Shown here piece by piece: positions 30,398 to 31,540 of a stretch of DNA of 64,000 nucleotides. Numbering within the stretch: position 1 is the stretch's first letter; every line of letters begins with the position of its first letter. The notes under the pieces were generated by a model. It was given only the letters and a program-made list of their open reading frames with translations. It searched no databases and was not told the origin of the DNA. The position numbers and the translations under genes were made by a program. Origin of the DNA: Escherichia coli (GTDB lineage: Bacteria; Pseudomonadota; Gammaproteobacteria; Enterobacterales; Enterobacteriaceae); assembly GCF_003334315.1 (NCBI RefSeq), contig NZ_QOWR01000023.1; one strand, given 5' to 3'.

Positions 30398-31540
30398 ATG
30401 GTTGATAAAATAATATTTACGGTTACTCCTATTTTTTCAATTCCTCCTCGCGGAGCGGCTGCTGTTGAAACGTGGATGTATCAGGTTGCTCAGCGTACCA
30501 ATTTTCCAAATCGTATTGTTTGTATCAAAAATCCAGGATACTCAAATTACACCTTTGTTAATGATAATTGTAGTATTCATAGGGTTGGATTCAGTCGCAT
30601 ATATAAGCGGTTATTTCAAAAATGGACAAGACTTGATCCTCTTCCATATTCACAGAGAATATTGAATATTGCACATGATTTTCCTATAACGAAAGAAAGT
30701 GTTATTGTAGTTCATAATAGCATGAAGCTATACACTCAAATTCGTAAGCGAGCTCCTCAGGCAAGAGTGGTTATACATATGCATAATGCATTTGAACCAA
30801 AATTGCTTGAGCAAAATGTTAAAATGATAGTGCCTAGTTTATACTTGAAAAAGTATTACCAATCTTATTTAGCAAATGCAGATATTGAGATTGTACCAAA
30901 TGGAATTGATTTAGAAACCTATCAATCTAATTTTCAGCCGATCACTAGAAGCGAACTTAATATCTCCCCTGAAGAGAAAATTATTTTTTATGCTGGGCGT
31001 ATCGTCCCTGACAAAGGCATATTGCTGTTGATGCAATCATTCGAAAAATTGGCCGCTGCTCACAAAAATTTAAAATTAGTTGTGATTGGTGATTATACAG
31101 AAATGAGTAAAAGTGACAAAGGTACATATCAACGCAATGTCAGGGAAATTGCAAAACGTTTGAAGGATCGTTGCATTATGTTAGGAAGCATACCGCCTGA
31201 AAAGATGCATTGTTATTACCCACTGGCAGATTTAGTCGTCATTCCTTCCCAGTTCCAGGAACCATTTTGCATGGTGGCAATTGAAGCTATGGGTGCTGGT
31301 AAGCCTGTTTTAGTGAGTACGCGTGGGGGGATGACGGAATTTGTCAAAGAAAATACAACGGGATTCCATTTAAAAGAACCTATGACTGCAGACTCCATAA
31401 GCAGCGATATTTTAAAAACGTTAGCGAATCCTGAATTAACAGCAGTTGCAAAGCAAGGTCAGGACTTTGTGTTTGATCACTACAGTTGGGATGGCGTAAC
31501 TCAAAGATTCGAAGAGGTTATTCATAATTGGTTTGAATAA
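30398..31540 (+). CDS. waaD: GT4-family outer-core glycosyltransferase (WaaD/WaaK-like)
   Basis: 380-aa ORF with GT4 EX7E-type motif (EPFCMVAIEAMGAGKPVLVSTRGGMTE); last gene before the convergent waaL, as in R3-type loci. Confidence 0.65.
   Translation: MVDKIIFTVTPIFSIPPRGAAAVETWMYQVAQRTNFPNRIVCIKNPGYSNYTFVNDNCSIHRVGFSRIYKRLFQKWTRLDPLPYSQRILNIAHDFPITKESVIVVHNSMKLYTQIRKRAPQARVVIHMHNAFEPKLLEQNVKMIVPSLYLKKYYQSYLANADIEIVPNGIDLETYQSNFQPITRSELNISPEEKIIFYAGRIVPDKGILLLMQSFEKLAAAHKNLKLVVIGDYTEMSKSDKGTYQRNVREIAKRLKDRCIMLGSIPPEKMHCYYPLADLVVIPSQFQEPFCMVAIEAMGAGKPVLVSTRGGMTEFVKENTTGFHLKEPMTADSISSDILKTLANPELTAVAKQGQDFVFDHYSWDGVTQRFEEVIHNWFE

What the first reader, a model, noticed from the sequence alone, without database searches (positions are those of the whole stretch)
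30398..31540. Terminal outer-core glycosyltransferase is GT4-fold, with uncertain specificity
The 380-aa protein has the retaining GT4 EX7E-type motif, whereas the two genes before it are GT8. I label it WaaD/WaaK-like from position only; which sugar it transfers cannot be read from the sequence.
Basis: inference. Interest (0 to 1): 0.3.

Follow-up and report, generated by a model that had tools for sequence, protein, structure and literature searches.

The report
Known E. coli R3-core gene waaD
This gene is waaD, the already-characterised enzyme that adds the last glucose to the R3-type lipopolysaccharide core of E. coli (the core type of O157:H7), so the finding is ordinary; the one practical point is that public annotation names it for a different sugar than published experiments report.

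Summary
The ORF at 30398-31540 (+) is real and is a GT4 (GT-B fold) glycosyltransferase with an EX7E motif at E288-E296. It is the last gene of the waaQ operon in an E. coli waa locus with the R3 gene order waaQ-G-P-I-Y-J-D, convergent with waaL.

Its specificity is not uncertain. The protein is 379/380 identical to WaaD of E. coli O157:H7. Published waaD deletion primers and R3 core-typing primers match the ORF exactly. The same gene is in 1364 of 5426 complete E. coli genomes.

Papers citing Kaniuk et al. [quoted passage not shown] Its loss removes the terminal outer-core glucose and prevents O-antigen ligation.

A tree built here puts it in a 100%-supported clade with Citrobacter, Silvania, Cedecea, Leclercia and Atlantibacter homologues. 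That clade is separate from the WaaK GlcNAc-transferase clade (Salmonella, E. coli R2; 57% identity).

RefSeq calls it "lipopolysaccharide N-acetylglucosaminyltransferase" because one NCBIfam model (NF012028) covers both clades. One S. flexneri paper also labels it as adding GlcNAc.

Verdict: already known, low interest. Side observation: paralogues of this enzyme sit on a prophage and on P1-like phage-plasmids.

The parts
30398..31540 (+). waaD coding sequence (380 aa), the R3-type outer-core GT4 glycosyltransferase
   Evidence: ORF. 99.8% nt identity and 379/380 aa identity to O157:H7 WP_000227811.1. Pfam GT4 domains. Published waaD deletion primers match at 30401-30430 and 31502-31535.
30995..31018 (+). 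G200-R201-I-V-P-D-K206-G207 motif at the start of the C-terminal Rossmann domain. By analogy with other GT4 enzymes it is inferred to bind the nucleotide diphosphate.
   Evidence: G200, R201, K206 and G207 are invariant in 26 homologues down to 35% identity. The binding role is inference from GT4 family knowledge and was not tested.
31259..31285 (+). EX7E motif (E288-PFCMVAI-E296)
   Evidence: Pattern search. Both glutamates are invariant. The motif lies inside the PF00534 match.
31543..31569 (.). Hairpin flanked by A and T runs between the convergent stop codons of waaD (31540) and waaL (31576); a likely bidirectional intrinsic terminator
   Evidence: Terminator scan. RNA fold gives -11.9 kcal/mol, z = -4.43 against shuffles.
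29376..30389 (+). waaJ, the GT8 enzyme that by the literature adds the Glc II residue which WaaD then glucosylates. Its stop codon is 8 nt before the waaD start.
   Evidence: Pfam PF01501 1e-62. RefSeq name UDP-glucose--(galactosyl) LPS alpha1,2-glucosyltransferase. Acceptor role.
28644..29351 (+). waaY, heptose(II) kinase, lying between the two GT8 genes
   Evidence: NF007684 equivalog, 390.5 bits against a cut-off of 248.
27611..28618 (+). waaI, GT8 alpha-1,3-galactosyltransferase
   Evidence: NF011718, 619.6 bits against a cut-off of 461. Pfam PF01501 1.9e-73.
31576..32784 (-). waaL, R3-type O-antigen ligase, convergent with waaD. Its type co-varies with the WaaD clade.
   Evidence: NF012031, 692.7 bits. 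WaaD-clade loci carry R3-like WaaL (64-69% identity), while WaaK-clade loci carry R2-like WaaL.
24511..24549 (+). JUMPstart/ops element upstream of waaQ. It is the expected RfaH loading site for the operon that ends with waaD.
   Evidence: Rfam RF01707, 55.2 bits against a gathering score of 35. GGCGGTAGCGTG is visible in the sequence. RfaH dependence is established knowledge and was not tested here.

Best explanation
The ORF is waaD of the E. coli R3 lipopolysaccharide core locus. It encodes a cytoplasmic retaining GT4 (GT-B fold) enzyme. The enzyme takes glucose from UDP-glucose and attaches it alpha-1,2 to Glc II, the residue just added by WaaJ, on the growing lipid A-core at the inner face of the inner membrane. 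This completes the R3 outer core. The added glucose is a side branch, not the O-antigen attachment point, but the R3-type WaaL ligase needs it to ligate O antigen. The gene is transcribed as the last cistron of the RfaH/ops-dependent waaQ operon and is followed by a terminator shared with the convergent waaL.

Shown here: identity with the characterised gene, GT4 fold and motifs, operon position, clade placement, and co-variation with the WaaL type.

Taken from the literature: donor sugar, linkage, and the O-antigen phenotype.

Inferred: the roles of E288/E296 and of R201/K206.
For: Identity:
- 379/380 aa identical to O157:H7 WaaD, and 99.8-99.9% nt identical in 1133 genomes.
- waaD deletion primers from an S. 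flexneri study and an E. coli R3 study match both ends of the ORF with no mismatch.
- R3 typing primers give the published 1,021-bp product in silico, 29460-30480.
- Gene order is waaQ-G-P-I-Y-J-D, convergent with waaL-C-F-gmhD.

Function, from papers:
[quoted passage not shown] - The S. flexneri waaD deletion gives a lipid A-core band that runs slightly faster than that of the waaL deletion (PMC3184986).

Fold: Pfam GT4 domains, the EX7E motif, and an AF2 model matching retaining GT4 structures.

Phylogeny: the WaaD clade has 100% bootstrap support and is distinct from the WaaK clade, which holds Salmonella and R2 WaaK.
Against: - RefSeq/PGAP names it lipopolysaccharide N-acetylglucosaminyltransferase, through NF012028 at 769.7 bits.
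- One paper's figure and text attribute GlcNAc addition to WaaD in S. flexneri 2a.
- The primary biochemical paper (Kaniuk et al. 2004, J Biol Chem 279:31237) is not in the library, so donor and linkage rest on secondary citations and on my memory of its abstract.
- The window allele differs from the O157 protein at residue 243 (T instead of A). This falls in a variable, lower-confidence stretch of the model.
Confidence: 0.9

Rival explanations
1. It is a WaaK-type UDP-GlcNAc:(glucosyl)LPS alpha-1,2-N-acetylglucosaminyltransferase, as the RefSeq product name says.
For: NF012028 'lipopolysaccharide N-acetylglucosaminyltransferase' scores 769.7 bits against a cut-off of 618. All 1364 E. coli copies carry that name. 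PMC3184986 interprets the S. flexneri waaD deletion as lacking GlcNAc. The protein has the same length, the same operon position and 57% identity to R2 WaaK.
Against: NF012028 is a 'subfamily' model that scores WaaD (770), Salmonella WaaK (762), R2 WaaK (724) and prophage copies (674-702) all above its cut-off, so its name carries no donor information. The protein falls outside the clade that contains the characterised WaaK proteins, with 100% bootstrap on both clades. The locus lacks waaZ and has a different WaaL type. Two papers citing the primary biochemistry say glucose. The S. flexneri paper shows only a gel shift, which cannot tell Glc from GlcNAc.
Confidence: 0.05
2. WaaD has relaxed donor or acceptor specificity. 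Besides the terminal glucose, it would also supply the alpha-1,3-GlcNAc on Gal I of the R3 outer core, whose transferase one source describes as unknown.
For: A preprint citing Kaniuk 2004 says the outer-core GlcNAc on galactose is added 'by an unknown protein', while plasmid-encoded WabB serves HepIII. WaaD's nearest characterised relatives are GlcNAc transferases.
Against: The waaJ mutant is described as keeping the GlcNAc on HexII while losing HexIII and its glucose, and WaaD is assigned only the glucose. A second acceptor (Gal) and a second linkage (1,3) would be unusual for one GT4 enzyme. I could not read the primary structural data. From memory of that abstract, WabB may itself have been proposed for this residue, so the 'orphan' status is uncertain.
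Confidence: 0.03
3. The ORF is an inactive or drifting allele in this strain and has no function.
For: It carries one amino-acid difference from the O157 protein (T243). The gene has low GC (36.9%) in a horizontally acquired block.
Against: The reading frame is full length and all invariant family residues are present. The 24-kb locus is 100.0% identical to those of several independent isolates. Residue 243 is variable across the family. The low GC is shared by all the type-specific waa genes.
Confidence: 0.02

Closest known systems
[quoted passage not shown] 2004)
   Same: 379/380 residues, the same locus order, and the same primer sites used to delete or type the gene.
   Different: Only T243 instead of A243, at a variable position.
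WaaK (RfaK) of Salmonella enterica and E. coli R2 (alpha-1,2-N-acetylglucosaminyltransferase)
   Same: The same family (NF012028), the same length, 57% identity with no gaps, and the same place as last gene of the waaQ operon convergent with waaL. From established knowledge, both use the WaaJ/WaaR-added Glc II as acceptor, make an alpha-1,2 linkage, and are needed for O-antigen ligation.
   Different: It belongs to a different clade, with 100% bootstrap on each. By the literature the donor is UDP-GlcNAc rather than UDP-Glc. WaaK loci have waaZ upstream and an R2/Salmonella-type WaaL. There are 33 clade-discriminating positions. At R62Y, P289A and S59D the WaaK state is the derived one relative to the outgroups.
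WaaG (GT4 glucosyltransferase I of the same operon, window 25654-26778)
   Same: A GT4 retaining UDP-Glc transferase acting on lipid A-core in the same pathway.
   Different: It acts on HepII as the first outer-core step. It is only distantly related, at 26-27% identity where detectable in outgroup loci, and was not among the PDB sequence hits for WaaD.
Solved retaining GT4 enzymes: sucrose-phosphate synthase 6kih, MshA 3c4q, BshA 5d00
   Same: GT-B fold with TM about 0.75. The EX7E and G-R...K motifs align.
   Different: Only 16-21% identity, with soluble small-molecule acceptors. No structure exists for any WaaD/WaaK member.

Membership tests
CAZy GT4 / GT-B retaining glycosyltransferases | C-terminal Glycos_transf_1 domain (PF00534) with an N-terminal GT4-type domain (PF13439) | tested here: met
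   PF00534 1.4e-34 and PF13439 8e-5.
CAZy GT4 / GT-B retaining glycosyltransferases | EX7E motif in the C-terminal domain | tested here: met
   E288-x7-E296. Both glutamates are invariant in 26 homologues.
CAZy GT4 / GT-B retaining glycosyltransferases | Two-Rossmann-domain GT-B fold resembling solved GT4 structures | tested here: met
   AF2 model with pLDDT 89.9. The top 50 Foldseek PDB hits are mostly retaining GT4 enzymes, with some related retaining GT-B enzymes (glycogen/starch synthases, OtsA, VldE); E down to 5.7e-22, TM 0.72-0.77 for the best GT4 hits.
CAZy GT4 / GT-B retaining glycosyltransferases | Retention of anomeric configuration (alpha product from an alpha-linked nucleotide sugar) | not testable with these tools
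   The literature names an alpha-1,2 product.
WaaD (R3 outer-core alpha-1,2-glucosyltransferase) | Near-identity to the experimentally studied O157:H7 / R3 / S. flexneri gene | tested here: met
   379/380 aa. Deletion primers from two studies match exactly.
WaaD (R3 outer-core alpha-1,2-glucosyltransferase) | R3 locus architecture: waaI-waaY-waaJ-waaD convergent with R3-type waaL | tested here: met
   The R3 typing PCR is reproduced in silico with a 1,021-bp product.
WaaD (R3 outer-core alpha-1,2-glucosyltransferase) | UDP-glucose donor, Glc II acceptor, alpha-1,2 linkage | not testable with these tools
   Literature only. The primary paper is not held.
WaaK (Salmonella / E. coli R2 GlcNAc transferase) | Match to NCBIfam NF012028 above its cut-off | tested here: met
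   769.7 bits against 618. The model does not separate WaaD from WaaK, so this feature does not discriminate.
WaaK (Salmonella / E. coli R2 GlcNAc transferase) | Clusters with the characterised WaaK proteins in a phylogeny | tested here: not met
   Separate clades, each with 100% bootstrap. Identity is 57% to R2 and Salmonella WaaK, against 71-77% to other WaaD-clade members.
WaaK (Salmonella / E. coli R2 GlcNAc transferase) | Locus context: waaY-waaZ-waaK with R2/Salmonella-type waaL | tested here: not met
   There is no waaZ, and WaaL is of the R3 type.
WaaK (Salmonella / E. coli R2 GlcNAc transferase) | UDP-GlcNAc donor | not testable with these tools
   Two papers say glucose and one says GlcNAc.

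The most novel reading that the evidence does not exclude
WaaD may not be strictly a glucosyltransferase. It could accept UDP-GlcNAc as well and account for the R3 outer-core GlcNAc, whose transferase one source calls unknown. More modestly, a handful of substitutions that are derived in WaaK (R62Y, P289A, F286V, S59D) could be the switch between glucose and GlcNAc in this family. The mobile prophage and P1-like plasmid paralogues would then use the same chemistry to remodel the LPS core of their hosts.
Probability: 0.04. Interest if true: 0.4.

Novelty: already known. Interest (0 to 1): 0.08.

Why it matters
For the scan, this finding can be closed. The gene is a textbook component of the R3 LPS core pathway, found in about a quarter of complete E. 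coli genomes, including O157:H7, O111 and Shigella.

The practical value lies in annotation. The RefSeq product name (N-acetylglucosaminyltransferase) comes from a family-level HMM and disagrees with the published activity (glucosyltransferase). In addition, 'waaD' is also used as a synonym for the heptose epimerase gmhD/rfaD, and this has already caused confusion in print. Anyone inferring core structure, phage receptors or vaccine antigens from annotation alone would get the terminal sugar wrong.

Tried and rejected
- I tried to read the primary paper (Kaniuk 2004) by DOI and PubMed id, as well as Raetz & Whitfield 2002, Amor 2000 and Smith 2008. None is held. Donor and linkage therefore rest on secondary citations.
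- I hoped to use the S. arizonae homologue as a second 'glucose' anchor, because from memory the Arizonae IIIa core ends in Glc. I rejected this. The only copy retrieved (L009) is not in the waa locus; it lies beside umuC, between thrS/pheS and pfkB.
- The genome-contig scan did not return S. enterica LT2. I substituted S. diarizonae (L024) and a serovar Infantis contig found in the phage collection (L029), whose WaaK proteins are 96% identical to each other.
- I wanted to map the clade-specific residues onto the model relative to the donor pocket, but model coordinates are not exposed to the sandbox. The residue list therefore stays a sequence-level hypothesis.
- The tree is neighbour-joining on corrected p-distances, not maximum likelihood. 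Only the 100%-supported splits are used.
- The second EX7E pattern, at residues 372-380, is a chance match at the C-terminus and was disregarded.

Full report
**What is there.** The window is an E. coli chromosomal segment. A 24-kb stretch around the finding is 100.0% identical to several E. coli isolates. The ORF at 30398-31540 (+) encodes 380 aa. It is the last gene of a co-directional run: waaQ 24599-25657, waaG 25654-26778, waaP 26762-27568, waaI 27611-28618, waaY 28644-29351, waaJ 29376-30389, then this gene. It is convergent with waaL 31576-32784, which is followed by waaC, waaF and gmhD on the minus strand.

A JUMPstart/ops element lies upstream of waaQ at 24511-24549 (Rfam RF01707, 55.2 bits; GGCGGTAGCGTG is visible in the sequence). 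A hairpin at 31543-31569 lies between the two convergent stop codons. It is flanked by A and T runs and folds at -11.9 kcal/mol, z = -4.43. The waaJ stop is 8 nt before the ATG.

**Checking the observation.** Pfam gives Glycos_transf_1 (1.4e-34) and Glyco_transf_4 (8e-5). The EX7E motif is E288-PFCMVAI-E296. Both glutamates, together with G200, R201, K206 and G207, are invariant in 26 homologues down to 35% identity. PDB sequence hits are all GT4 retaining enzymes. An AlphaFold2 model (pLDDT 89.9, pTM 0.87) has alternating strand-helix halves. Its best Foldseek matches are sucrose-phosphate synthase, MshA, BshA, HepE and PimB', at TM about 0.75.

The neighbouring transferases waaJ and waaI are GT8.

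**Identity of the gene.** Megablast finds the ORF full length in 1364 of 5426 complete E. coli genomes, always once and always chromosomal, at 97.9-99.9% identity. These include O157:H7, O55:H7 and O111. Against O157:H7 strain 7.1_Anguil there are two nucleotide differences and one amino-acid difference, T243 instead of A243.

Published primers confirm the identity:
- The S. flexneri 2457T waaD deletion primer (PMC3184986) matches 30401-30430 exactly.
- The R3 waaD deletion primer (PMC9927288) matches 31502-31535 exactly.
- The R3 core-typing primer pair of PMC13293308 matches at 29460-29482 and 30461-30480. This gives exactly the published 1,021-bp product.

The gene is therefore waaD of the R3 core type, by sequence and not merely by position.

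[quoted passage not shown] It also states that a defect removes the terminal outer-core glucose and abolishes O-polysaccharide ligation. PMC9927288 says the HexIII glucose added by WaaJ bears a glucose substituent added by the WaaD glucosyltransferase. Both cite Kaniuk et al. 2004, which I could not open. My memory of its abstract agrees with them. The S. flexneri waaD deletion yields only a lipid A-core band, running slightly faster than that of a waaL mutant. That fits the loss of one sugar plus the loss of ligation.

The mechanism I commit to is as follows. WaaD is a retaining GT-B enzyme working at the cytoplasmic face of the inner membrane. It binds UDP-Glc in the C-terminal domain and transfers Glc alpha-1,2 onto Glc II of the nascent core. 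The finished core is then flipped and used by the R3-type WaaL. The roles assigned to the G-R...K and EX7E motifs in donor binding are inferred from GT4 family knowledge, not tested.

E. coli R2 WaaK (L002:9001-10143) has the same length and is 57% identical to WaaD with no gaps. S. enterica serovar Infantis WaaK is the neighbour of rfaZ/STM3715 and is annotated as 1,2-N-acetylglucosaminetransferase. It is 96% identical to S. diarizonae WaaK, 73% to R2 WaaK and 57% to WaaD.

A neighbour-joining tree of 33 family members with 200 bootstraps gives two clades, each at 100% support:
- A WaaK clade: Salmonella, E. coli R2, E. albertii and E. whittamii.
- A WaaD clade: the window protein with Citrobacter, Silvania, Cedecea/Enterobacter Ag1, Leclercia and Atlantibacter, at 71-77% identity.

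Locus maps show that WaaD-clade genes sit in waaI-(waaY)-waaJ-waaD loci with R3-like WaaL. WaaK-clade genes sit in waaB/O/R-waaY-waaZ-waaK loci with R2-like WaaL. The two are positional counterparts but separate lineages, and each travels with its own ligase type. That agrees with the reported need for the terminal branch sugar in ligation.

Thirty-three positions separate the clades. At residues 59, 62 and 289 the WaaK state (D, Y, A) is derived relative to Providencia, Mangrovibacter and betaproteobacterial outgroups. Several of the positions flank the EX7E and GG motifs (286, 289, 295, 299, 306, 309, 312). These are candidates for the Glc/GlcNAc switch, and nothing more than candidates.

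**The annotation conflict.** RefSeq names every copy 'lipopolysaccharide N-acetylglucosaminyltransferase'. The name comes from NCBIfam NF012028, a 'subfamily' model with a cut-off of 618 bits. All of the following score above that cut-off:

| Protein | Score (bits) |
|---|---|
| WaaD (window) | 770 |
| Salmonella WaaK | 762 |
| R2 WaaK | 724 |
| Citrobacter WaaD | 706 |
| Mobile-element copies | 674-702 |

The name is therefore a family label, not evidence about the donor sugar. [quoted passage not shown]

One paper labels WaaD as the GlcNAc-adding enzyme in S. flexneri, but its evidence is a gel shift. The symbol waaD is also used for gmhD/rfaD. A 2025 typing paper describes its R3 primer target 'waaD' as the heptose epimerase, although the primer lies in this ORF. 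A 2026 preprint uses waaD for the epimerase throughout.

**Loose end.** A preprint citing Kaniuk 2004 says that plasmid-borne WabB puts GlcNAc on HepIII, and that the GlcNAc on the outer-core galactose is added by an unknown protein. My own recollection of the abstract is not clear on which GlcNAc WabB supplies. This leaves a small opening for the dual-specificity reading. I rate it at a few percent, because the waaJ mutant is described as retaining that GlcNAc and WaaD is credited only with the glucose.

**Verdict.** The gene is real and correctly recognised as a GT4 enzyme and as WaaD/WaaK-like. However, it is a known, characterised gene whose specificity is in the literature. Novelty: already known. 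Interest is low.

Noticed in passing
L010:7525-8676 (E. coli E69, CP089930.1); L009:8001-9143 (S. arizonae CCUG 6322T); L028:6001-7143 (plasmid NZ_CP046005.1) and 14 similar plasmids: Paralogues of WaaD/WaaK (60-66% identity) sit on or near mobile elements, outside the waa locus. One lies directly after P2/Mu-like baseplate and tail-fibre genes and next to rluF. One lies beside umuC. About 15 lie on roughly 95-kb P1-like phage-plasmids of E. coli, E. albertii and E. fergusonii, where the gene directly follows a DapH/GlmU-like acetyltransferase, between holin and tail-fibre-assembly genes. They form a 100%-supported subclade sister to the waa-locus WaaD clade. This suggests lysogenic conversion of the LPS core, possibly to block superinfection.
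   Followed up: partly
window 30398-31540; NCBIfam NF012028: The RefSeq product name 'lipopolysaccharide N-acetylglucosaminyltransferase' is applied to WaaD, WaaK and the mobile paralogues alike, because one subfamily HMM covers them all. For R3 WaaD it contradicts the published glucosyltransferase activity.
   Followed up: yes
window 30461-30480 and 34833-35765: There is a gene-name collision: 'waaD' denotes both this R3 glycosyltransferase and the heptose epimerase gmhD/rfaD. A 2025 core-typing paper describes its R3 primer target waaD as the epimerase, yet the primer lies inside this ORF.
   Followed up: yes
window 27611-32784: The core-type-specific genes waaI, waaY, waaJ, waaD and waaL form a low-GC block of 30.5-36.9% GC. 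The window average is 49.4% and the conserved flanking genes waaA, waaC, waaF and gmhD are at 50-54%. This is consistent with an exchanged cassette.
   Followed up: partly
window 24511-24549: A JUMPstart RNA with an ops element (GGCGGTAGCGTG) lies upstream of waaQ. It is the expected RfaH antitermination signal for the operon.
   Followed up: partly
window 31543-31569: A hairpin flanked by A and T runs lies between the convergent waaD and waaL stop codons, and is probably a bidirectional terminator.
   Followed up: partly
window 36054-36926: yibB (htrL; 290 aa, 36.9% GC) lies between gmhD and kbl. It is present in the R3-like loci of E. coli, Citrobacter and Enterobacter Ag1. It is absent from the R2, E. 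albertii, Silvania and Salmonella loci examined.
   Followed up: no
window 39671-40705: The waaH (yibD) reading frame is intact here at 344 aa, whereas the O157:H7 comparison strain carries it as a frameshifted pseudogene.
   Followed up: no
L013, L014, L025: Metagenome-assembled genomes labelled Bacillota, Flavihumibacter and 'Candidatus Coprosoma' contain short contigs with E. coli R2 or R3 waa genes at 99-100% protein identity. These are almost certainly contaminating E. coli contigs in the bins.
   Followed up: no
Salmonella protein cluster P0113 / P0135 (not in window): A Salmonella enterica protein cluster (127 members, one seen on 663 contigs) is 71% identical to WaaD and 77% to the S. 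arizonae island copy, but only 58% to Salmonella's own WaaK. Its genomic context was not examined.
   Followed up: no
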